A stretch of 64,000 bases of DNA from Escherichia phage CMS-2020a: the sequence record CP054387.1, one strand, 5' to 3'. This document shows, piece after piece, positions 1-54,764 of the stretch. The notes below the pieces were generated by a model. That model saw only the letters and a list, made by a program, of their open reading frames with translations, ran no database searches and had not been told where the DNA came from. A program made the translations under genes and the position numbers. Each line of letters begins with the position of its first letter. Position 1 is the stretch's first letter.

Positions 1-459
1 CTTTAACTTCTAGCGAATTACCTTTTCTTTCAACATCATCAATACAAACCAAATAATTATTAACAAATTTATACTCAAGAGATGACAGCAGGTTATCTGT
101 TTTGAACCCAAAAAAATCGTTCTTTCCGAAATGTATTAAAAATTTTGACAAGGAGTTGTATTTCAACCATCCCCAAAACCCATTTCTATAACGAATCATA
201 GTTCGATCCGTTTCAGATAAAATTAGTTCTTTATATTTCTTTTCATTAATTGGTGTGGCACAATGATAAAGAGCTTTTTTAATATCACCAATAGAGTTAA
301 CCCCAAACAAAGAAACATACGAATATGCATTAAAATCTAATCCTTCAGAATGCTTAGTATAAAAACTATTCCAATAATGAGTTTTACCAACGCCCCAATC
401 TCCTTTTATGACGGCAACCCGATGATCTGAAACTAGAAAATTTTTTAGAAATGATTCTA
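1..459 (-). CDS. KAP-family-like P-loop NTPase, N-terminal fragment (gene continues beyond window start)
   Basis: Absent from ORF track because there is no stop inside the window. Minus-strand ATG at 459..457 preceded by AAGGA. My translation MESIESFLKNFLVSDHRVAVIKGDWGVGKTHYW... contains Walker A GDWGVGKT and a later hhhhDD (LVCIDDVER) Walker-B-like segment. Visibly AT-rich. Confidence 0.5.
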
Positions 460-520
460 TCGATTCCATTAGTATCAATCCTTTAATTCATATATTGGGC
501 GTAACAAACGCCCAATATAA

Positions 521-1548: not shown

Positions 1549-1866
1549 TGGAGAGTTCCCTTTGCGTATATAATTATCGTCTGAAACAACTTGTTTTCTT
1601 ATATGTGATATAGCCTAAATGCCTACGGCTGCGGTGTAAAGGTTAAATGGCAGGTTGTGATTAACAATTGGCAAACATAGCTTGTATTTGTCTGTTGAAA
1701 AAAGTAACAATGACCTCTATATTACAAGTACGGTGATATGCTGTACACAATTTGATAATGCACACGTAATGGGCTATAGCCTTTTAAAGTAATTTTTGAG
1801 TCGAAAACTCAGTTTGAACAGAGGAGATTGATGGCCTTCCTACATCACGGCCATCAGGAGGAATAC

Positions 1867-8182: not shown

Positions 8183-8276
8183 GTTGAATCTGCTCCTTTA
8201 ATCAGGTGGGCTATCCTTGCCCACCATTAAGTATGTAACTACCTATTATTATCGATAAAAATATTTTTTTCCATAA

Positions 8277-21569: not shown

Positions 21570-21642
21570 TGATGGAAACTCCTTTTTCCGTTAATTTCAC
21601 GCATTCATTGCGCTATATTTAAGTATATACTTACCTATTTAT

Positions 21643-24240: not shown

Positions 24241-24272
24241 AAGCATAGGTAATTACATACCTATTGTTTTAG

Positions 24273-26127: not shown

Positions 26128-27702
26128 TCACTCGTTCTCTTGAGTAGATGAGTCCCCATTCCCTCGGGGTTGATCTTGCCCGCTTTCTTGGGCTGCACCA
26201 CGATCATAAGTAAGTACTGACTTATTTTCAAGGGTATTTAGATCATTTTTTGGAGGAAAATTCAAGAGATCTTTATCAAATTCCTTTTTCATCGCCTCAG
26301 TAATGTTCGGGAAAATCTTCTCAATAAGCATTTCCATCTGGTGACGACGTACAGAGTCCGGTGCCTGAAGTAATGACAGTTTCTCGGCAACAGAAAATTC
26401 ATCAGTAAGGCCACGAATATCGAAACTTTCTGGATACGCAATTAAAGAGTGGTCTTCGTCCAGATCTACCCCCATCCATTTCGCAACCAGTAGCATGATT
26501 TGGCGTTCAGCCCTTTCCAGACGCTCTGCTTTTGTGACAAGCAAGCTATTTACACGCTGGAAGTCATACATTTTTGCGGCACCAGATGAATTATCGATTC
26601 CCTGTGCGTTGTCCTGCTTCGTTCGCTCACCAGCTACACCAACTGAATGGTAGATTTCGTTAATCACCGTCTTAATCGTAGTGATGATCATCTGAGCTTG
26701 TTTCGGGTCTGGTGACAGATAAAACGGCTGGTTTCCACCTTCAGAATCGTAGGTGAAGACTCGCTTTGTGCCCATTTCAAGCACTTTAGTGTGGTTTTCA
26801 TCACCAGGTAAAAGCGACTGTACCGGTATAGCCAACTGGCTAAATGTCTGATCCTGAATAATGGCATCAAGGTTTGACAGATAGTTTGCAACCGCACGAT
26901 CAAGATAAGCGATATCATCGATCAACGATGGGCTGAAATACGGTGATTCACTTTCTCCAATACAATCAACAGGAAACACAGGAACTACGCCGAGATTATG
27001 CTCACCGCTATCCTCTAAAATAACTTTTGCCTGACGGCGACCTGCTCCACCAGCGCCCTTCTTCACTTCCTCACGGAACAGATACCACTCGTTTTGTGTC
27101 CACAGACGATAACGTTGGTATTCCTGACCTGTAGAAGTAAAAGGATCTGCGTCATCACGAGCGACTTCCACAATTAACGCCCACAACATATTCCCGTCGT
27201 CGTCCCATGCCACATCCAGCATTTGCTGAGGTGAAATCCAGTAGGCGTAGGCGCGAGCATCTTTCTTTTTCTCGTCAGCTACTGACTCAACATCACCACT
27301 CATCGTGCTATCGACAACAACCCATATGCGACCGTAAATAGACGACTGCAAATCAATGGCGGCCATAAATGAGTCAATAGAGGCATTCTGGCGAGTCGCA
27401 CGTTTCCAGAAATTGCGGATCTGCTCTGGTGCCTCTTCGATATTTCTATGAATGTCTTCTTTAAAGAGATATTTGTTGATGAGGTTTACCACCTCACGAG
27501 TGTGGTTGAAGCGATAGGCACGCTCAACACGCTCCTTAAACTCCTGATCTCCCTCTTTAAAGTAACGAAAGATATTGTCTGTAAACCAACCACGCCCGCC
27601 AGCGTAAGTGCTGGCGAGGAAGTCCCAATGTTCTTTTTTCTTTTCGTATTCCGGGTGGCGTCGCGCCACCAGATCCTTAATTTGTTTGTCGTTCAAATCC
27701 AT
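26128..27702 (-). CDS. portal protein
   Basis: 524 aa, immediately downstream of terminase large subunit. Confidence 0.7.
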   Translation of the reverse strand: MDLNDKQIKDLVARRHPEYEKKKEHWDFLASTYAGGRGWFTDNIFRYFKEGDQEFKERVERAYRFNHTREVVNLINKYLFKEDIHRNIEEAPEQIRNFWKRATRQNASIDSFMAAIDLQSSIYGRIWVVVDSTMSGDVESVADEKKKDARAYAYWISPQQMLDVAWDDDGNMLWALIVEVARDDADPFTSTGQEYQRYRLWTQNEWYLFREEVKKGAGGAGRRQAKVILEDSGEHNLGVVPVFPVDCIGESESPYFSPSLIDDIAYLDRAVANYLSNLDAIIQDQTFSQLAIPVQSLLPGDENHTKVLEMGTKRVFTYDSEGGNQPFYLSPDPKQAQMIITTIKTVINEIYHSVGVAGERTKQDNAQGIDNSSGAAKMYDFQRVNSLLVTKAERLERAERQIMLLVAKWMGVDLDEDHSLIAYPESFDIRGLTDEFSVAEKLSLLQAPDSVRRHQMEMLIEKIFPNITEAMKKEFDKDLLNFPPKNDLNTLENKSVLTYDRGAAQESGQDQPRGNGDSSTQENE

Positions 27703-27728
27703 TTGAATAACCTTAGATAATTACTTAC

Positions 27729-28985
27729 CTATCGAGAACCACCAAGAATAACACGGTTTTTGACTGGATACCTACGATGTACTGGATAGCCCAATGCGTC
27801 TGCACTATGCTCAATGCCACCTGTCTTATCCATATCTCGTGTTCCAGGCTTGTAGATGACTTTTTCCAGTGAATCAATCAAATGCTTGCACTTCGGATCG
27901 ATATACAGCCGGATATCTCCAGATGCGGACATCAGCATTCGGTTAACAGCATTAACACGATCCGCAATTGGCGGGTGCTTTTTCGAATAATCGACACGTA
28001 AGAATCCCTTCTCTTTGAATATGTCTACGTCAGACTCCCCACGAGCATGTTGGCGATAAGCACCTGCCGGATCTGGAAATACCGTTACCTGTGATTTCCA
28101 GCGCCAGAAGCGTCTCTCAAGCTCATCACAAACTTCTGCCGTGTTAGAGGAAAAGAGCACCAATTCATCAATTGCCCATAGCTCACCATTTGGCTGAGGT
28201 TGCAAAATTACTGAAGACATCGGGTCAATGTTGAAGTCCTGCCCTACCCATATAGGCAACCGAGGGTTGAACTGAAGCGGTTTTACATGCACGTTACGAT
28301 CGAACGGGTAGTAAACGCGCCCGGACATGTTCTCAAAGCTGGCCAGGTACTCCTGAGCGAACGATTTGGGGTCCATATCGTTCTTAGCAGCTTCAATTTC
28401 CGCCGTAGGTACAAACGGAGAATCGGCAGTTACAAACTGCCAGCTCTTCCACTGTCCCTTTCTTTGCAGCTCTACGTTCTGGCCTATAGTCCACAGTTTG
28501 TGAAATTCCGAGAAGCCTTTTGGCGTACCAATGATCAGTGCACCGCCGCGTGTCGATGAAAGAGTAGGTCGTAACACCTTGTACCAGGTGTCAGCCTTCA
28601 TATCCTGAAATTCATCAAGCACTACAAAATGCAACGCTACGCCGCGCAGAGTGTCAGGCTTATCAGCACCTTTGAGGGCGATCTCCGAACCGTTCTTCAA
28701 CACGATTGTCATCGTGGTGTCGTTCTTTTTCCTAACCCACTTACGAGGCAGAACTTCCTGTAGATCGTCCCACAAAATCTGGCGAGCCATCTGGTAAGTA
28801 GGAGCGACATACCAGACCCTTTGCTTTTTTTCCTTTGCCGCCGCACGAATAATAGTGGAGATCGACAACCGGGATTTTCCCCAGCGTCGACCAGCACAAA
28901 CAACTTTAAATCGATGCGGAGACTGGAAGACTTTCATCTGTCCAGAATGCAGTTGCACAAGACTGAGCGAGGACGGGATTGCCAT
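27729..28985 (-). CDS. terminase large subunit
   Basis: 418 aa; Walker A VVCAGRRWGKS, Walker B HFVVLDEFQD, acidic residues in C-terminal nuclease-like half. Confidence 0.8.
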   Translation of the reverse strand: MAIPSSLSLVQLHSGQMKVFQSPHRFKVVCAGRRWGKSRLSISTIIRAAAKEKKQRVWYVAPTYQMARQILWDDLQEVLPRKWVRKKNDTTMTIVLKNGSEIALKGADKPDTLRGVALHFVVLDEFQDMKADTWYKVLRPTLSSTRGGALIIGTPKGFSEFHKLWTIGQNVELQRKGQWKSWQFVTADSPFVPTAEIEAAKNDMDPKSFAQEYLASFENMSGRVYYPFDRNVHVKPLQFNPRLPIWVGQDFNIDPMSSVILQPQPNGELWAIDELVLFSSNTAEVCDELERRFWRWKSQVTVFPDPAGAYRQHARGESDVDIFKEKGFLRVDYSKKHPPIADRVNAVNRMLMSASGDIRLYIDPKCKHLIDSLEKVIYKPGTRDMDKTGGIEHSADALGYPVHRRYPVKNRVILGGSR

Positions 28986-29617: not shown

Positions 29618-29710
29618 AGATCCCTCTAAAACACACAGAGCGCGTCCATGCGCTCTAAAACAACTTGTTTACTGCATCTGCTAACCAACTTGTTTTCTGG
29701 GGTGTTTAAT

Positions 29711-29812
29711 TAGGTCTGGCATGTCTTACGAAGCCTGCTTCCGTATATATTTAATAAGTTACTTATTATTTATATATACAGATGCAGGTCTTTAAATAAG
29801 CTCCCAGACCGA
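29711..29812. promoter_or_regulatory. conserved palindromic intergenic element, copy 1 (upstream of terminase genes)
   Basis: aggtctggc...gcctgcttccgtatatatttaataagttacttattatttatatatacagatgcaggtc...cccagacc; inverted arms cctgcttccgtatata / tatatacagatgcagg around an AT-rich palindromic centre; second copy at 61221..61306. Confidence 0.5.
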
Positions 29813-30079
29813 TTACATCACCAGTAACTTCGCTTTGGCTCGACCTAAAGTGGTTAACCCAAGAGTTCGGCGGTGATAGCGATTGTCACTGCGTTGGCGC
29901 GTATGCCCTTTCTCCACCAGCCCCTTTTTTATCAGAGCGCGAATTGAGAACTGGATACTTTGCTTGGTTGTCTTGTACGGCAAAACTTCAAGCAATTCGT
30001 CCAGGTCAAGTAGATGACCTCGCTCATAACCGAGATTGAGCGTTTTGATGATGTCCTTTTGTTTATCGGTTAACGTCAT
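29813..30079 (-). CDS. winged-helix DNA-binding protein (putative regulator)
   Basis: 88 aa, basic C-terminus, directly upstream of palindromic element and terminase. Confidence 0.5.
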   Translation of the reverse strand: MTLTDKQKDIIKTLNLGYERGHLLDLDELLEVLPYKTTKQSIQFSIRALIKKGLVEKGHTRQRSDNRYHRRTLGLTTLGRAKAKLLVM

Positions 30080-30088
30080 GGCAAATCC

Positions 30089-30979
30089 TTATGCCGGTAA
30101 AGCAATTTCTAACGGTTTATCCAAAGGTTGTTTGTCGAATGCCAGCAATGGCAGCGTGTCAGGCAGTCGACGACCAAAGTCAGGGTTTCGATACACACCA
30201 TACAACGGAGACGTAAAGCTCAGGTTGTGAATGTCCTTGAGCAGCTTCACAATGCTGGCCTCGTCCACCAGACTGTCGGCAATGTCCTGAATCGTCGTGC
30301 CACGATTCCGCCCAGCTTTTGCCAGGGAACTGTTCTTGTGGTAGTCCGCCACCAGATCACGCAGTGCACGGCGACGACGAGACTCGCTCATTGCGAACAA
30401 CTCTTTGACGATCGCCTCGTTATCACCCGTGTCGGAACGGAAATGGCGCTGGAATACACGCAGTGCACTTTCATAGCTCTTCGGTCGCTCAGGGCGGATG
30501 AACTTAAACCCTGCTTTCATGGCGAAGGGATTGTATTTGCTCATCGAGGACTGGATCTCAATGATTGGCCGGTCATGCATCCTGCTAACCAGGTTAATCA
30601 TTCGATAAGAGACGCCTACGCCACGATACTGAGTATCCACAACTGAGCGACTGATCACCGCAAAGTTGTTATTCACGTACCGACCCCAGTACTGGTTAGC
30701 CACGGTGGTATTAGTGGTTGGTTTCAACTTAGGAAACATGCGGTGGCGAGGTGCCAACAGTAGTTTCGGGTAAGCCATAACCACGACGCCCACCAGACGA
30801 TCATCAAGTTCGCAGCGATAGTAAGTTGGCGCGAAAGGTTTGCCGTCTGTTTTGTAGTGAAGCGACTTAAGAGCGTGCCAGTCCTCTACAGTTCCCTTTG
30901 TAACAGTCATTCGCTCCAGAAAGTCCAGATGACGCGGAAACTCTTCAGGGCGGTAGCGTTTAATGATGATGTCCGTCAT
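30089..30979 (-). CDS. GNAT-fold acetyltransferase-like protein with C-terminal extension
   Basis: 296 aa; VVDTQYRGVGVSYRMINLV fits GNAT motif A (R/Q-x-x-G-x-G); YNPFAMKAGFKFI fits motif B; overlaps ABC ATPase gene by 4 nt. Confidence 0.5.
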   Translation of the reverse strand: MTDIIIKRYRPEEFPRHLDFLERMTVTKGTVEDWHALKSLHYKTDGKPFAPTYYRCELDDRLVGVVVMAYPKLLLAPRHRMFPKLKPTTNTTVANQYWGRYVNNNFAVISRSVVDTQYRGVGVSYRMINLVSRMHDRPIIEIQSSMSKYNPFAMKAGFKFIRPERPKSYESALRVFQRHFRSDTGDNEAIVKELFAMSESRRRRALRDLVADYHKNSSLAKAGRNRGTTIQDIADSLVDEASIVKLLKDIHNLSFTSPLYGVYRNPDFGRRLPDTLPLLAFDKQPLDKPLEIALPA

Positions 30980-31641
30980 AAATGGACCTCATCATGACTA
31001 CCATTGTGATATTCCACCTTCACGCGTTCTTTGTAGTGCTTGGTGATCTGCATATCCGGGCGCAGCGCGTTCTTCAGGTCTTCGTGAGTCGTCGCCACCA
31101 TTACCGTCGCACCAACCTTTCGAGCGGCACGCTGGAGGTTAGATGCCACAACCTGAGCGGTTACACGGTCTAGAACAGCACCGAACTCGTCAGCAGCCCA
31201 CACTTTAGCGCCTGACTCAATCAGTTTGGCAATCTTGAGACGATATTTCTGGCCGTCTGACATTTCAGAAGGCTTGCGAACAAACAGATATGCATCGTTC
31301 AGACCAGCCATAGATAACAACCCAAGCGCATCGCTGGTCGTTTTGCCCAACTGATCGATGACGTTAACCTCATTATCGAAGGTAAAATCATCGATGGAGG
31401 CTACAGACAGCCCTTCATCCTTCATCTGTCGTTGCAACTCGCGCAGCACAACGGATTTGCCGGAACCGGATTGGCCGGTGATGTACACCACATCGCCCTG
31501 CTTCACTTCCAGCTCCAGATTGTCGTAAAGCGTCCACTCTTTTTCGTCCAGGCCAAGCCCGAACGACTCAGCGATTTCCAACGTGCGCGTGGTTTTATTT
31601 ACGCGTGTCTGAAACGATACGTTGATGTTGTATTTGCTCAT
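30976..31641 (-). CDS. ABC-type ATPase (stand-alone nucleotide-binding domain)
   Basis: 221 aa; Walker A GQSGSGKS, signature-like SDGQKYRL, Walker B VWAADEFG, H-loop ATTHE. Confidence 0.8.
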   Translation of the reverse strand: MSKYNINVSFQTRVNKTTRTLEIAESFGLGLDEKEWTLYDNLELEVKQGDVVYITGQSGSGKSVVLRELQRQMKDEGLSVASIDDFTFDNEVNVIDQLGKTTSDALGLLSMAGLNDAYLFVRKPSEMSDGQKYRLKIAKLIESGAKVWAADEFGAVLDRVTAQVVASNLQRAARKVGATVMVATTHEDLKNALRPDMQITKHYKERVKVEYHNGSHDEVHL

Positions 31642-32306
31642 GCAGCCATCTCCCCGGAAGAGATCTTCTCCGCATATGCCACAAATGCGTCTACCCCGCT
31701 TTCTCCCGTCATTTCTTCCATATGGGCAAGCAAATCACCAACAACAATGGCAGAGCCAGCAGGGAGAGTTTTAAAGCCCAATACGTCGACAACACGTACT
31801 TCTTCCGCTGCAACTTCACGACTGATCTCGGTGTGTTCATCCTTCTGTCGTTTAGTTTCTTCGCTAAGATCGATAACTAGCGAGTCGGTGTCCATTTCTT
31901 CTGTCATACTGCCAACGAGAACATTCAACTCACGCTCTTCAAAGCCGAAAACCTCGATATCGTCCAGAACAAGCGACTCAAGCTCTTTCTGTAGCTTAAT
32001 TGCATCGTAATCAATGCTGGCAAGTCGGTTATCTTCAAGGCGCTTCGCACGAACCTCGTCATCACTGAGATCATCGCGAACAATAACCGGTACACGCTCA
32101 AGTCCAGCAAAAATTGCAGCCTCACGGCGGCCGTGGCCAGTAATAATTACGTCGTTCTTATCGACCGTAATTGGCTGGTCAAATCCGCGCTTTTTAATGG
32201 CTGCGGCCAGATCTCTGATCTGCTGTTCATCATGCTTTTTGGCATTCATCTCATAGGGAATAAGATCTGCCGGGTCGCGATATACGATTTCAAACTTTTT
32301 GGTCAT
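31638..32306 (-). CDS. ParB-like nuclease domain protein 1
   Basis: Start at ATG 32306 (AAGGAG upstream, TAATG overlap with upstream stop); IITGHGRREAAIFAGLERVPVIVRD matches ParB/Srx GxxRxxAA box. Confidence 0.7.
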   Translation of the reverse strand: MTKKFEIVYRDPADLIPYEMNAKKHDEQQIRDLAAAIKKRGFDQPITVDKNDVIITGHGRREAAIFAGLERVPVIVRDDLSDDEVRAKRLEDNRLASIDYDAIKLQKELESLVLDDIEVFGFEERELNVLVGSMTEEMDTDSLVIDLSEETKRQKDEHTEISREVAAEEVRVVDVLGFKTLPAGSAIVVGDLLAHMEEMTGESGVDAFVAYAEKISSGEMAA

Positions 32307-33004
32307 TACATACGCTCCTTGTAGTAGTCGACCAGCCACACTAGAGCCTCACCAGCGTTTTCCATTTCATTGCCAGTATTAATTGCCTGGTCTTTGATGA
32401 TGTTTTTTATGGTTTCTGCAACGCGATCTGACGCATCGAAGGTTACTTTGAAGCGCATGGTCTGATGTTCCGCACCGACACGTTCGGTTTTCTCTCGTTT
32501 GTCGGTATCGACAGGCTCATCACTACCACGAGACAACGCCTCCAGTGCTTCAAGGTCGATTGCCGCCTCTTTTGCTAAAACCATCGAGATTTCGTCGTCA
32601 TACGGGGCGATTTCAGACAGTTGATAGTCAAGTTCTGACTGAATTTCTTCAATGAAGCGTTGCAATGCGATTTGGTCGTCTTCACCGTATCGCTCGTTGT
32701 CCACCAGTGACATCTGTTTTGCCACGACATCGCTAATTTTGCCCACAGAAAGCACAGGAACCGTTGAAATTCCTTGCTCAATAGCAGCACGCCAGCGATG
32801 TTCGCCGCCGAGGATTTCAAAAAATCCATCTTCAAGCTCACGAGCCAAAATTGGCTTAAAAAAGCCCAATTTTTCGATAGAACCTTTCAGTTTTTCGAAA
32901 TTCTGCGCACCAACCGAATTGGTGTTCCAGGTATTCGGGCGAAGGTTGGCAACATCAACCTGCAAAATCGTGATTTTTACGTCCATTTTATTGCTACAAT
33001 CCAC
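32306..33004 (-). CDS. ParB-like nuclease domain protein 2
   Basis: 232 aa (start ambiguous, GTG 33004 or ATG 32986); ILGGEHRWRAAIEQGISTVPV is a ParB-type motif. Confidence 0.7.
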   Translation of the reverse strand: MDCSNKMDVKITILQVDVANLRPNTWNTNSVGAQNFEKLKGSIEKLGFFKPILARELEDGFFEILGGEHRWRAAIEQGISTVPVLSVGKISDVVAKQMSLVDNERYGEDDQIALQRFIEEIQSELDYQLSEIAPYDDEISMVLAKEAAIDLEALEALSRGSDEPVDTDKREKTERVGAEHQTMRFKVTFDASDRVAETIKNIIKDQAINTGNEMENAGEALVWLVDYYKERM

Positions 33005-33068
33005 TAAGTAATCACTTACTTATTATAATAGCCAAATAACATACAAAAGGCACTAAGGAAAGAGGTTT

Positions 33069-41091: not shown

Positions 41092-41216
41092 ATCACTCTC
41101 CATAGTGTCTTGGTTATTTTTCTATTTTATAGACATAGGTATGTACTTACAATACAAAAAACCCCGTAAGGATGGCGGGGCTGTCGTACTGTCGACTAAT
41201 TACCACTTGCACATTA

Positions 41217-41528: not shown

Positions 41529-41682
41529 CACAACTCCGTAAACAACTTGTTTTCTCAATGGCGTAAATAATACCAGTAAGAAAACGGCTACAAAGCATAT
41601 TGATCAGGCGCATGAGCGATATGCAGGTTCTTCCCTGCGGCTACAGATGAAGTTAAGCCAGCAATGCTGGCTTTGGTTGGGC

Positions 41683-42012: not shown

Positions 42013-42122
42013 AAAGCAATCCTTAAACATGTTGTTTTCTGAATTACGTAAACAATACCAGTAAGAAAACGGCCACAAAGTATATCGTTACGGTGCTACG
42101 CTGCCCCGAGGTTAATAGCGAC

Positions 42123-44432: not shown

Positions 44433-44544
44433 TTCAACTACTCCAAAACAAGTTGTTTTCTTATGTGGCTTATTATCTCAATCAACAAAAGGTAGAAAAC
44501 AAATTGTTTTAGGGATTGTGTAAATCAGGAGGGATTGTGTCTAT

Positions 44545-48348: not shown

Positions 48349-48484
48349 TACATGAAAGAAGCTCACTCAGTGCAACTGATCGGTACATAGCACCAGACAA
48401 AGGAACGTTATTTTCTCGAACAAGAAAAGGTAGAAAACAAATTGTTTAAGGCCACAACTAGTGGCCTTAATGGAGAAGGGATGC

Positions 48485-54703: not shown

Positions 54704-54764
54704 ATGTTTTTCTCTTATCGTTTAGTTATTACATTCTTACACAAATTAAGTAAGTATTTACCTA

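What the first reader, a model, noticed from the sequence alone, without database searches (positions are those of the whole stretch)
29711..29812. Duplicated ~90-bp palindromic regulatory element (second copy 61221..61306)
Seen in sequence: two copies share a flank aggtctgg..., inverted arms cctgcttccgtatata / tatatacaga(a/t)gcagg and an AT-rich palindromic centre. Copy 1 lies between the wHTH regulator gene and the terminase small subunit, where late promoters or packaging sites are usually found. Copy 2 lies between the Dam methyltransferase gene and a small gene in the early region. Inference: a shared promoter/operator recognised by one activator or repressor, or a pair of recombination or packaging recognition sites.
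Basis: seen in the sequence. Interest (0 to 1): 0.5.

Follow-up and report, generated by a model that had tools for sequence, protein, structure and literature searches.

The report
Conserved hairpin terminators in a phage-plasmid
The two look-alike palindromes are real: they are two of three conserved copies of a long hairpin that sits at operon borders in SSU5-type phage-plasmids, and it most likely stops or processes transcripts rather than acting as a promoter, operator or packaging site.

Summary
Both copies have a 53-57 bp core: arms CCTGCTTC(C/T)GTATATA around an AT-rich centre. An outer inverted repeat, GGTCTGG...CCAGA(C/A)C, flanks the core.

The window is an SSU5-like phage-plasmid. 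Cyrano and SSU5 each carry exactly three copies, at three syntenic sites that recur across the relatives sampled:
- Site A: wHTH gene | terS (copy 1).
- Site B: Dam | small gene (copy 2).
- Site C: par operon or cargo | replication module. This copy lies about 3 kb left of the window in the nearest relative.

Each window copy starts 2-3 nt after the stop codon of the upstream, co-directional gene. Sites B and C are followed by a sense-strand T-tract. In published RNA-seq of the relative Cyrano, transcript level falls about 9- to 200-fold exactly across site C. At site A the flanks extend the stem with lineage-specific, partly compensatory pairing, and more distant relatives keep a large palindrome of different sequence there.

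Best reading (about 0.5): a transcribed nested hairpin that acts as an intrinsic terminator or insulator. It may also be an RNase III site with lambda tI/sib-like architecture.

Two things remain unexplained. The inner arms are almost invariant, and site A lacks a U-tract. A sequence-specific protein partner is therefore not excluded. The copies also exchange sequence with one another. The promoter and packaging readings are not supported.

The parts
29803..29810 (-). Copy 1 (site A), outer arm on the 5' side of the sense (- strand) RNA: GGTCTGGG. It starts 2 nt after the TAA stop of the wHTH gene (29813-29815).
   Evidence: Sequence read; ORF. It pairs with 29712-29719 in the predicted fold.
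29773..29788 (-). Copy 1, inner arm, 5' half in the sense RNA (CCTGCATCTGTATATA).
29750..29772 (-). Copy 1, AT-only centre (upper stem and loop) with the core AATAAGT-N-ACTTATT.
   Evidence: I19.
29734..29749 (-). Copy 1, inner arm, 3' half in the sense RNA (TATATACGGAAGCAGG). This half is almost invariant across the family.
29712..29733 (-). Copy 1, 3' flank in the sense RNA: the tail CTTCGTAAGACATG (no U-tract) followed by the outer arm CCAGACCT.
   Evidence: T count is 3 of 8. Flank pairing scores z = -3.6 against shuffled flanks (L009).
61318..61324 (-). Copy 2 (site B), outer arm on the 5' side of the sense RNA (GTTCTGG), 3 nt after the Dam TAG stop (61328-61330).
61289..61304 (-). Copy 2, inner arm, 5' half in the sense RNA (CCTGCTTCTGTATATA). 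It forms a U.G wobble with the other arm.
61264..61288 (-). Copy 2, AT-only centre, less symmetric than in copy 1.
61248..61263 (-). Copy 2, inner arm, 3' half in the sense RNA (AATATACGGAAGCAGG).
61238..61247 (-). Copy 2, U-rich tail directly after the hairpin in the sense RNA (CTGTTTTGTA; 6 T in 8).
61221..61228 (-). Copy 2, outer arm on the 3' side of the sense RNA (CCAGACCT), beyond the presumed termination point.
63039..63065 (-). Short canonical terminator-like hairpin using the same stem (GCCTGCTT / AAGCAGGC). T-runs follow on both strands. It lies just after the stop (63074) of the exonuclease gene.
   Evidence: D20; I8; -22.6 kcal/mol.
29656..29698 (-). Context, not part of the palindrome: two AACAAsTTGTT operator- or promoter-like palindromes between copy 1 and terS.
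   Evidence: D4 and D5; 18 sites against 2.65 expected in the window.
29636..29657 (-). Context: a GC-rich hairpin plus TGTGTTTTAG (attenuator- or terminator-like) just before the terS ribosome-binding site.
   Evidence: It is conserved in SSU5 and in the Klebsiella relative.

Best explanation
The element is a transcribed, nested stem-loop kept at three operon or module borders of SSU5-type phage-plasmids.

On the sense (- strand) RNA, the inner 53-57 nt palindrome folds into a hairpin of about 23-26 bp. Its base is the GC-rich stem CCUGCUUC(C/U)G / CGGAAGCAGG. At sites B (copy 2) and C a U-tract follows, so the hairpin works as an intrinsic terminator or insulator. It stops transcripts of the upstream unit (Dam operon; par and cargo genes) from running into the next module.

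The outer repeat (GGUCUGG...CCAGACC) and the spacers can only pair in RNAs that read through, because the 3' half lies beyond the U-tract. That would build a duplex of about 45 bp, which would be an RNase III substrate. This is the same architecture as lambda tI/sib retroregulation. Copy 1 (site A) has the hairpin and the best-supported outer stem but no U-tract. There it is more likely a processing, stabilising or pause element ahead of the late-operon control region.

What is shown: anatomy, conservation, position, T-tracts, the RNA drop across the paralogous site C, flank complementarity, and exchange between copies. What is inferred: that the RNA form is the active one, termination at the two window copies, and RNase III cleavage.
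For: 1. Position. Both window copies start 2-3 nt after the stop codon of a co-directional upstream gene. The same holds at the three syntenic sites in relatives.

2. A strand-specific T-tract follows the 3' arm. At least 5 T in 8 occur in 10 of 12 distinct site C flanks and 6 of 14 site B flanks. On the antisense side the counts are 4 of 12 and 0 of 14.

3. Published lysogen RNA-seq of Cyrano (PMC9928086, S1 table). CYRAN_28, 29 and 30 give 50, 89 and 55 normalised counts, against 6 for CYRAN_31. In the other conditions the log2 values are 8.6-10.4 against 2.6-4.2. The drop falls in the 193-nt gap that holds site C, and the consensus scan finds no canonical terminator there. That scan also missed the site C hairpin itself, so it excludes only canonical terminators.

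4. Folding. The folds are strong: the 123- and 126-nt regions reach -48.2 and -42.4 kcal/mol on the sense strand (z = -7.9 and -6.6). Distant family members still fold, even though their upper stems differ.

5. Flanks pair better than dinucleotide-shuffled flanks at site A in 8 of 9 lineages (z = -2.5 to -4.9). In the L022 lineage the outer repeat at site A changed on both sides (GGTCTGG/CCAGACC to CAACTGG/TCAGTTC), while site B of the same contig kept the consensus.

6. Arm-to-arm length varies from 49 to 57 nt, and some centres are not palindromic (for example a 25-nt loop in L065). A hairpin tolerates both; a rigid dimer site or cruciform extrusion would not.

7. Relatives with TerL only 65-75% identical keep the wHTH|terS synteny and carry large palindromes of different sequence there.

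8. A canonical small terminator in the window uses the same stem sequence.
Against: 1. Copy 1 (site A) has no U-tract in any of 12 lineages, so it is not a canonical intrinsic terminator.

2. The inner stem shows conservation, not covariation. 8 of 17 pairs never vary, and the counts do not exceed the shuffles. This points to sequence-specific recognition or to homogenisation.

3. The strand test is not decisive. The sense strand folds better at sites A (22 of 23) and C (14 of 14). At site B the antisense strand folds better in 12 of 20 sequences, by 10-16 kcal/mol in the SSU5-type lineages, and it also folds better at L138 and L140.

4. In the common CMS-2020a/pLAO59 variant, site C lies between divergently annotated genes. 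There it is not directly downstream of a sense gene.

5. The RNA-seq evidence concerns only the third copy, in a relative, at gene-level resolution.

6. The distance from the palindrome centre to the next start codon is similar (about 113-147 nt) at nearly all sites examined. A promoter-associated DNA site would also fit this.
Confidence: 0.5

Rival explanations
1. A double-stranded DNA site for a phage-encoded sequence-specific protein. Candidates are the adjacent 88-aa putative wHTH protein, the repressor, or a ParB-like protein. It would act as an operator, upstream activating site or 'stoperator'-like road-block for the three downstream modules (late genes, replication genes, post-Dam genes).
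For: The inner arms are nearly invariant in 33 distinct sequences from three sites and several lineages, with no covariation. A GCTTCC/GGAAGC core recurs even in distant relatives whose palindrome is otherwise different or everted. The palindrome centre lies at a similar distance (about 113-147 nt) from the next start codon at nearly all sites examined. In one common variant, site C sits between divergently annotated genes. The putative wHTH gene always abuts site A.
Against: Half-site spacing varies from 49 to 57 bp in steps of 1-2 bp. The strand-specific T-tract and the start just after stop codons have no role in this model. Lineage- and site-specific compensatory pairing of the flanks is not explained, because the change occurred at one site only within a genome. 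No sigma-70-like promoter overlaps the element.
Confidence: 0.2
2. An RNA processing or stability element only. It would be an RNase III site or a 3'-end protective hairpin, like the T7 intergenic RNase III sites or REP/ERIC hairpins, with no termination.
For: The duplex length, about 23-26 bp inner and up to about 45 bp with the flanks, fits the known RNase III requirement of roughly 20 bp or more (established knowledge; folds). It lies between genes of a co-directional array. Site A lacks a U-tract. The several T7 RNase III sites are, from memory, also related in sequence.
Against: The 50-200-fold loss of downstream RNA across site C and the conserved T-tracts at sites B and C are more simply explained by termination.
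Confidence: 0.1
3. A DNA-level replication or recombination element. It could be an AT-rich unwinding element or origin for lytic replication. It could also be a palindrome-induced break site that feeds the phage's T4-like recombination-dependent replication (the phage encodes homologues of SbcCD, RecA/UvsX, UvsY, UvsW and gp32).
For: The centre is AT-only. Site C lies immediately upstream of the helicase/primase module. The copies clearly exchange sequence, once in inverted orientation. The SSU5 record is opened inside copy A.
Against: GC skew gives no origin signal. Imperfect stems, G.T-type pairs, bulges and non-palindromic centres in some lineages disfavour cruciform extrusion. The T-tract polarity is unexplained. 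No initiator repeats or DnaA boxes were noticed on reading the sequence, but this was not searched for formally.
Confidence: 0.08
4. Dispersed centromere (parS) sites for the ParA/119-aa partner system, like the four scattered centromere sites of N15.
For: There are three dispersed palindromic copies on a low-copy plasmid prophage. In cargo-free variants, site C lies directly downstream of the par operon (L006, L027).
Against: The objections are the same as for other duplex-DNA models: variable spacing, T-tract polarity and flank covariation. The 119-aa partner has no recognisable DNA-binding family. A type Ib ParA usually has its repeats upstream of parA (established knowledge).
Confidence: 0.05
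5. A packaging (pac/cos) site, or a mobile miniature palindromic element.
For: Copy 1 lies just upstream of terS, and the SSU5 record starts inside it. The element has terminal inverted repeats.
Against: Three near-identical copies per genome would give sub-genomic cuts. The Cyrano start was copied from SSU5. The element is fixed at the same three syntenic positions. No target duplication was seen, and no copies occur in unrelated contexts: the other 15-mer hits are chance matches inside genes.
Confidence: 0.04

Closest known systems
Lambda tI terminator / sib retroregulation site
   Same: A terminator hairpin lies just downstream of a gene and is nested in a longer dyad. The 3' half of that dyad lies beyond the termination point, so only read-through RNA can form the long RNase III-sensitive duplex.
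   Different: There is no sequence similarity. Here there are three copies per genome at module borders. Copy 1 has no U-tract. RNase III cleavage and differential mRNA decay are untested.
Intrinsic (Rho-independent) terminators, including bidirectional ones
   Same: A GC-rich stem base is followed by a U-tract at copy 2 and at site C. The element sits at the end of a transcription unit, and RNA drops across site C.
   Different: The hairpin is unusually long (53-57 nt, about 25 bp) and its upper stem is AT-only. The stem sequence is conserved across sites and lineages. An outer stem is present. Copy 1 lacks the U-tract.
Phage T7 intergenic RNase III processing sites
   Same: Several related stem-loops of 50-60 nt lie between genes of co-directional operons in one phage genome.
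   Different: T7 sites have characteristic internal loops and do not terminate host RNA polymerase. Processing has not been shown here.
Dispersed centromere sites of the plasmid prophage N15; stoperators of cluster A mycobacteriophages; C1 operators of P1
   Same: Short conserved sites are scattered over a (plasmid-)prophage genome at gene borders and control or insulate lytic modules.
   Different: Those are short duplex-DNA protein sites with fixed geometry. This element is a 55-100 nt hairpin-forming dyad with variable centre length and a polar T-tract.
ERIC / REP / Correia-type intergenic palindromic repeats
   Same: They are imperfect palindromes of about 100 nt in transcribed intergenic regions that fold in mRNA and affect stability or termination.
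   Different: Those are multi-copy and mobile, or at least variable in presence. This element has three fixed syntenic copies and no Rfam match.

Membership tests
Intrinsic terminator | Stable GC-containing stem-loop in the transcript | tested here: met
   The inner hairpins fold at -25.7 kcal/mol (copy 1) and -28.6 kcal/mol (copy 2) on the sense strand, with z = -7.2 and -8.0.
Intrinsic terminator | U-tract immediately 3' of the stem | tested here: inconclusive
   Copy 2 has CTGTTTTGTA (6 T in 8). Copy 1 has CTTCGTAAGA (3 in 8), so the feature is not met there. Family-wide counts are 10 of 12 at site C, 6 of 14 at site B and 0 of 12 at site A. The simple scan flags neither copy, because it handles stems of at most 20 pairs without bulges.
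Intrinsic terminator | Transcript ends or drops at the site | tested here: inconclusive
   Evidence exists only for the third copy, in the relative Cyrano: a 9- to 200-fold drop between CYRAN_30 and CYRAN_31. At sites A and B both neighbouring genes are near background in the lysogen.
RNase III site (lambda sib or T7 type) | About 20 bp or more of dsRNA, here including an outer stem that spans the termination point | tested here: met
   Predicted folds of the 123- and 126-nt regions. Flank pairing exceeds shuffled flanks at site A.
RNase III site (lambda sib or T7 type) | Cleavage by RNase III in vivo or in vitro | not testable with these tools
   This needs rnc mutants or purified enzyme.
Sigma-70 promoter / operator | -35 and -10 hexamers; fixed half-site spacing | tested here: not met
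   No promoter-like site was found at copy 1, and only 9-of-12 chance-level matches near copy 2. Arm-to-arm length varies from 49 to 57 bp.
pac/cos packaging site | A unique site at which virion DNA ends are made | tested here: not met
   There are three copies per genome. End mapping is not testable here. The SSU5 record opens inside site A, but the Cyrano start was derived from SSU5.
Protelomerase target (telRL of N15-type phages) | A single palindrome next to a protelomerase gene on a linear hairpin-ended prophage | tested here: not met
   No protelomerase is annotated in Cyrano or SSU5. The relatives are circular plasmids. There are three copies.
Dispersed parS (N15-like) | Bound by the cognate ParB; confers partition or incompatibility | not testable with these tools
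   Only the context could be examined: site C lies next to the par operon in cargo-free variants.
MITE / ERIC-like mobile palindrome | Many copies, variable presence, target-site duplication | tested here: not met
   All true copies fall in three syntenic sites, and no target duplication was seen.
Any Rfam RNA family | Score at or above the gathering threshold | tested here: not met
   No match at gathering thresholds in the window. Only chance-level miRNA-precursor hits appear (E = 0.8-9.5).

The most novel reading that the evidence does not exclude
The three hairpins are not passive terminators but one coordinated switch. A sequence-specific factor, or read-through-dependent RNase III cleavage in the manner of lambda sib, would act on the invariant CCUGCUUC/GAAGCAGG stem. 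That would open or close the borders of the replication, post-Dam and late modules together when the plasmid prophage shifts from maintenance to lytic growth. A DNA-level variant is that the palindromes are break or unwinding sites that start the phage's T4-like recombination-dependent replication, which would also explain why the copies keep exchanging sequence.
Probability: 0.2. Interest if true: 0.6.

Novelty: new variant of a known kind. Interest (0 to 1): 0.35.

Why it matters
SSU5-type phage-plasmids are very common in Enterobacteriaceae. This family includes pHCM2 of S. Typhi, pMT1 of Y. pestis and many Klebsiella and E. coli plasmids that carry resistance genes, yet their regulation is almost unstudied.

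A conserved three-copy hairpin marks the borders between plasmid-maintenance or cargo genes and the lytic modules. It gives a concrete, testable handle on how lytic genes are kept silent in the plasmid state. It also bears on how inserted cargo genes are insulated and on where transcription units begin and end. If the stem turns out to be recognised by a specific factor, it would be a new regulatory circuit. If not, it is a well-behaved terminator family and useful for annotation.

Tried and rejected
- GC and AT skew on the Cyrano genome. The skew follows gene direction everywhere and gives no origin signal.
- Own-versus-foreign flank pairing. This does not discriminate, because all flanks share the outer motif. 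I replaced it with shuffled-flank controls.
- Covariation counts on the inner stem. There is no signal; the stem is simply conserved.
- G.U polarity and sense-versus-antisense folding as a strand test. The results are inconsistent at site B and could also reflect mutation bias.
- 'Flipped copy' explanation of the site B arm polarity. I rejected this for SSU5, where the centres share one orientation. It holds only for L033 against L065.
- Two IMG/VR scans with the arm sequences of distant relatives. They gave only chance hits.
- The single genome-contig scan with TerS found 4 loci.
- Protein P0007 was not on record.
- Paper searches by name and by the literal arm sequences found nothing on this element. 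One preprint was not held.
- Other ideas considered from memory and dropped:
  - LexA box: half-sites CTGTAT/ATACAG are present but at the wrong spacing.
  - Sigma-54 promoter downstream of copy 1: the spacing is off by one.
  - IHF site in the centre: poor match.
  - loxP or telRL similarity: none.

Full report
**What is there.** Copy 1 has inner arms at 29734-29749 and 29773-29788 around a 23-nt AT-only centre. Copy 2 has arms at 61248-61263 and 61289-61304. A search for the 16-nt arm with up to 3 mismatches returns exactly these four arms in 64 kb, against 0.38 expected by chance. The two copies are 78-79% identical.

Each copy is wrapped in a second inverted repeat. In copy 1 it is GGTCTGG at 29712-29719 and CCCAGACC at 29803-29810. 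In copy 2 it is 61221-61228 and 61318-61324. The full element is therefore a nested dyad of about 100 nt. All genes here are on the - strand. On that strand the element begins 2 nt after the stop of the 88-aa putative wHTH gene (copy 1) and 3 nt after the stop of Dam (copy 2). It ends about 90-115 nt before terS and before a small gene, respectively.

**Where the window comes from, and how many copies exist.** The window is an SSU5-like phage-plasmid. It is 99.7% identical over 700 nt to Escherichia phage CMS-2020a, and its relatives include SSU5, Cyrano (pLF82) and Klebsiella phages. 798 PLSDB plasmids match the copy-1 region, from Klebsiella, Escherichia, Enterobacter, Yersinia pestis and Salmonella.

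The 15-mer CCTGCTTCCGTATAT occurs in more than 120 IMG/VR stretches. Every hit that is a true palindrome falls into one of three syntenic sites:
- Site A: wHTH | terS.
- Site B: Dam | small gene.
- Site C: after parA and its 119-aa partner, with or without inserted cargo genes, and before the replication module (a PHROG-2500 gene, DnaB-like helicase, primase).

Cyrano and SSU5 each have exactly three copies. In CMS-2020a, site C lies about 3 kb to the left of the window start. The window therefore holds two of three copies. It also holds a short terminator-like hairpin at 63039-63065 that uses the same stem, GCCTGCTT/AAGCAGGC.

**Evidence for a transcript-level hairpin and terminator.**

1. 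*Position.* The element always starts directly after a stop codon in a co-directional gene array.

2. *T-tract.* The 3' arm on the sense strand is followed by a T-tract at site C (at least 5 T in 8 in 10 of 12 distinct flanks, for example GCAGGtcttttaaaag). The same holds at site B in 6 of 14 flanks (copy 2: GCAGGctgttttgta). The antisense side rarely has one.

3. *RNA-seq.* In the published lysogen transcriptome of E. coli LF82, the par and cargo genes CYRAN_28-30 give 50-89 normalised counts. The next gene, CYRAN_31, gives 6. In the four other conditions the log2 values are 8.6-10.4 against 2.6-4.2 (PMC9928086, S1 table). The 193-nt gap between these genes contains site C. The consensus scan finds no canonical terminator there, though it also missed site C itself.

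4. *Folding.* The 123- and 126-nt regions fold into one long hairpin, at -48.2 and -42.4 kcal/mol on the sense strand (z = -7.9 and -6.6).

5. *Flank complementarity.* At site A the flanks are more complementary than dinucleotide-shuffled flanks in 8 of 9 lineages (z = -2.5 to -4.9). The pairing is lineage-specific. In one lineage the outer repeat at site A changed on both sides, while site B of the same contig kept the consensus. A symmetric protein site would not be expected to change at only one site in a genome.

6. *Variable centre.* Arm-to-arm length varies from 49 to 57 nt through TA slippage. In some lineages the centre is not palindromic, with a loop of up to 25 nt. A hairpin tolerates this. 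A rigid dimer site or cruciform extrusion would not.

7. *Distant relatives.* Relatives whose TerL is only 65-75% identical keep the wHTH|terS synteny. They carry large palindromes of different sequence at that spot. The Acinetobacter lineage (59%) has only a small AT-rich palindrome there.

**What does not fit a plain terminator.**

- Copy 1 and all other site A copies lack a U-tract.
- The inner stem is conserved rather than covarying. 8 of 17 pairs never vary. The main variation is C-G, U.G or U-A at one pair, and the counts do not exceed the shuffles.
- The sense strand folds better at sites A (22 of 23) and C (14 of 14). At site B the antisense strand folds better in 12 of 20 sequences, by up to 16 kcal/mol in the SSU5-type lineages. 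The strand test is therefore not decisive and may reflect mutation bias.
- In the common CMS-2020a/pLAO59 variant, the cargo gene next to site C is annotated on the opposite strand. The palindrome then sits between divergent genes.
- The centre of the palindrome lies about 113-147 nt from the next start codon at nearly all sites examined. A promoter-associated DNA site would also fit this.
- A GCTTCC/GGAAGC core persists even in distant, otherwise different palindromes.

These points keep a sequence-specific protein partner in play.

**Concerted evolution.** The copies exchange sequence with each other:
- The centre of site B in one contig (L079) is much closer to site A of the same contig (L022; score 28) than to orthologous B sites of other lineages (13-16).
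- The site C centre of CMS-2020a is identical to the site A centre. Cyrano's site C differs.
- In a distant lineage, sites B and C of one contig share the same non-palindromic centre in opposite orientations (18 against 2).

Gene conversion between copies therefore contributes to the sequence uniformity. This weakens 'invariant arms' as an argument for a protein site, but does not remove it.

**Mechanism proposed.** The inner hairpin plus U-tract terminates sense transcription at sites B and C. This insulates the next module. It is shown indirectly for site C and inferred for copy 2.

The outer stem's 3' half lies beyond the U-tract, so it can only form in read-through RNA. The result would be a duplex of about 45 bp. 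From the known substrate rules of RNase III, that duplex should be cleaved. This is the architecture of lambda tI/sib retroregulation (an analogy from established knowledge, not tested here).

Copy 1 has the best-supported outer stem but no U-tract. It is more likely a processing, stabilising or pause element placed just upstream of the real late-operon control region. That region holds two AACAAsTTGTT palindromes (29656-29698) and a GC hairpin with a T-run (29636-29657) immediately before the terS ribosome-binding site.

- Promoter: there is no consensus support.
- Packaging site: three copies argue against it. The SSU5 record does open inside copy A. The identical Cyrano start, however, was set by alignment to SSU5. 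The SSU5 start may equally be an assembly break at a perfect hairpin.
- Recombination sites: no site-specific system is linked to them, but homologous exchange between copies occurs.
- Operator or activator site: not excluded (confidence 0.2).

**Comparison with what is known, and novelty.** There is no Rfam family. The searchable literature has no mention of the arm sequences, and the phage-plasmid papers checked do not mention palindromes.

The closest known systems are intrinsic terminators, lambda tI/sib and the T7 RNase III sites. As DNA-level analogies, the closest are the dispersed N15 centromeres, the P1 operators and the mycobacteriophage stoperators.

I file the element as a new variant of a known kind: an unusually long terminator-type hairpin that is conserved in sequence, nested, present in three copies, and evolving in concert. 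Interest is moderate (0.35). A specialist would not be very surprised by terminators at module borders. The invariant stem, the sib-like nesting and the exchange between copies are nevertheless worth an experiment in this very widespread and little-studied plasmid-prophage family.

Noticed in passing
window 1584-1596, 29658-29670, 29683-29695, 41540-41552, 42025-42037, 44446-44458, 44497-44509, 48435-48447, 58098-58110, 58827-58839 and others: A dispersed palindromic motif, AAACAAsTTGTTT, has 18 sites with up to 2 mismatches against 2.65 expected. The sites checked lie in intergenic regions upstream of operons (parA; terS, where there are two copies); the rest were not checked against genes. 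It looks like the operator set of the prophage repressor or a phage-specific promoter element, in the style of the dispersed C1 operators of P1.
   Followed up: partly
window 8228-8245, 21616-21637, 24246-24263, 26207-26224, 27714-27731, 33008-33022, 41136-41150, 54747-54764, 59719-59736, 61934-61951: A second dispersed palindrome family, TAGGTAAGTA-nn-TACTTACCTA, gives 21 strand hits against 0.43 expected. At the sites checked it lies a few to about 30 nt upstream of start codons (portal, Dam, ParB-like gene). The Acinetobacter relative has an analogous TAGTAAGCGCTTACTA family. Its half-site TAAGT/ACTTA resembles the core of the big palindrome's centre. Function unknown.
   Followed up: partly
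window 29636-29657 (- strand): A GC-rich hairpin plus T-run lies directly between the operator-like motifs and the terS ribosome-binding site. It is conserved in SSU5 and in the Klebsiella relative. A promoter followed at once by a terminator suggests that the late operon is controlled by antitermination, in the style of lambda PR'-tR'/Q.
   Followed up: partly
window 490-520 and 1-470 (- strand); L126 30331-31134; L131 6165-6932: The stretch between the ParA partner gene and site C is a cargo hotspot. Different genomes carry different genes there: a P-loop NTPase-like gene in this window, a 267-aa protein in Cyrano, and an opposite-strand gene in pLAO59/CMS-2020a. The replacement runs from the parB-like stop codon to within a few nt of the palindrome.
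   Followed up: partly
window 30089-33004 (- strand): A conserved five-gene block lies just upstream of copy 1: two ParB_N-domain proteins, an ABC-type ATPase, a 296-aa protein annotated in relatives as an ATPase/acetyltransferase fusion (no Pfam match here), and the 88-aa putative wHTH protein. It is kept next to terS even in relatives with TerL 59-75% identical. Its role is unknown (packaging, DNA modification or defence?).
   Followed up: no
L138 2160-2290; L139 2005-2090; L140 2100-2200: Distant relatives have their own large palindromes at the wHTH|terS site. In L138 the arm-like sequences (TATGGAAGCTAGG ... CCTCGTTTCCATA) are homologous to the window's arms but in swapped (everted) order around a GC-rich insert of about 60 nt. 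GATC/AGATCT motifs appear in L138 and L139 but not in the window copies.
   Followed up: partly
JQ965645.1 (SSU5) positions 1 and 103299; OV696614.1 (Cyrano) positions 1 and 108379: Both GenBank/ENA records are linearised inside the site A palindrome, 1 nt apart. Cyrano was oriented on SSU5. Whether the SSU5 start reflects a virion DNA end or a 454 assembly break at a perfect hairpin is unknown.
   Followed up: partly
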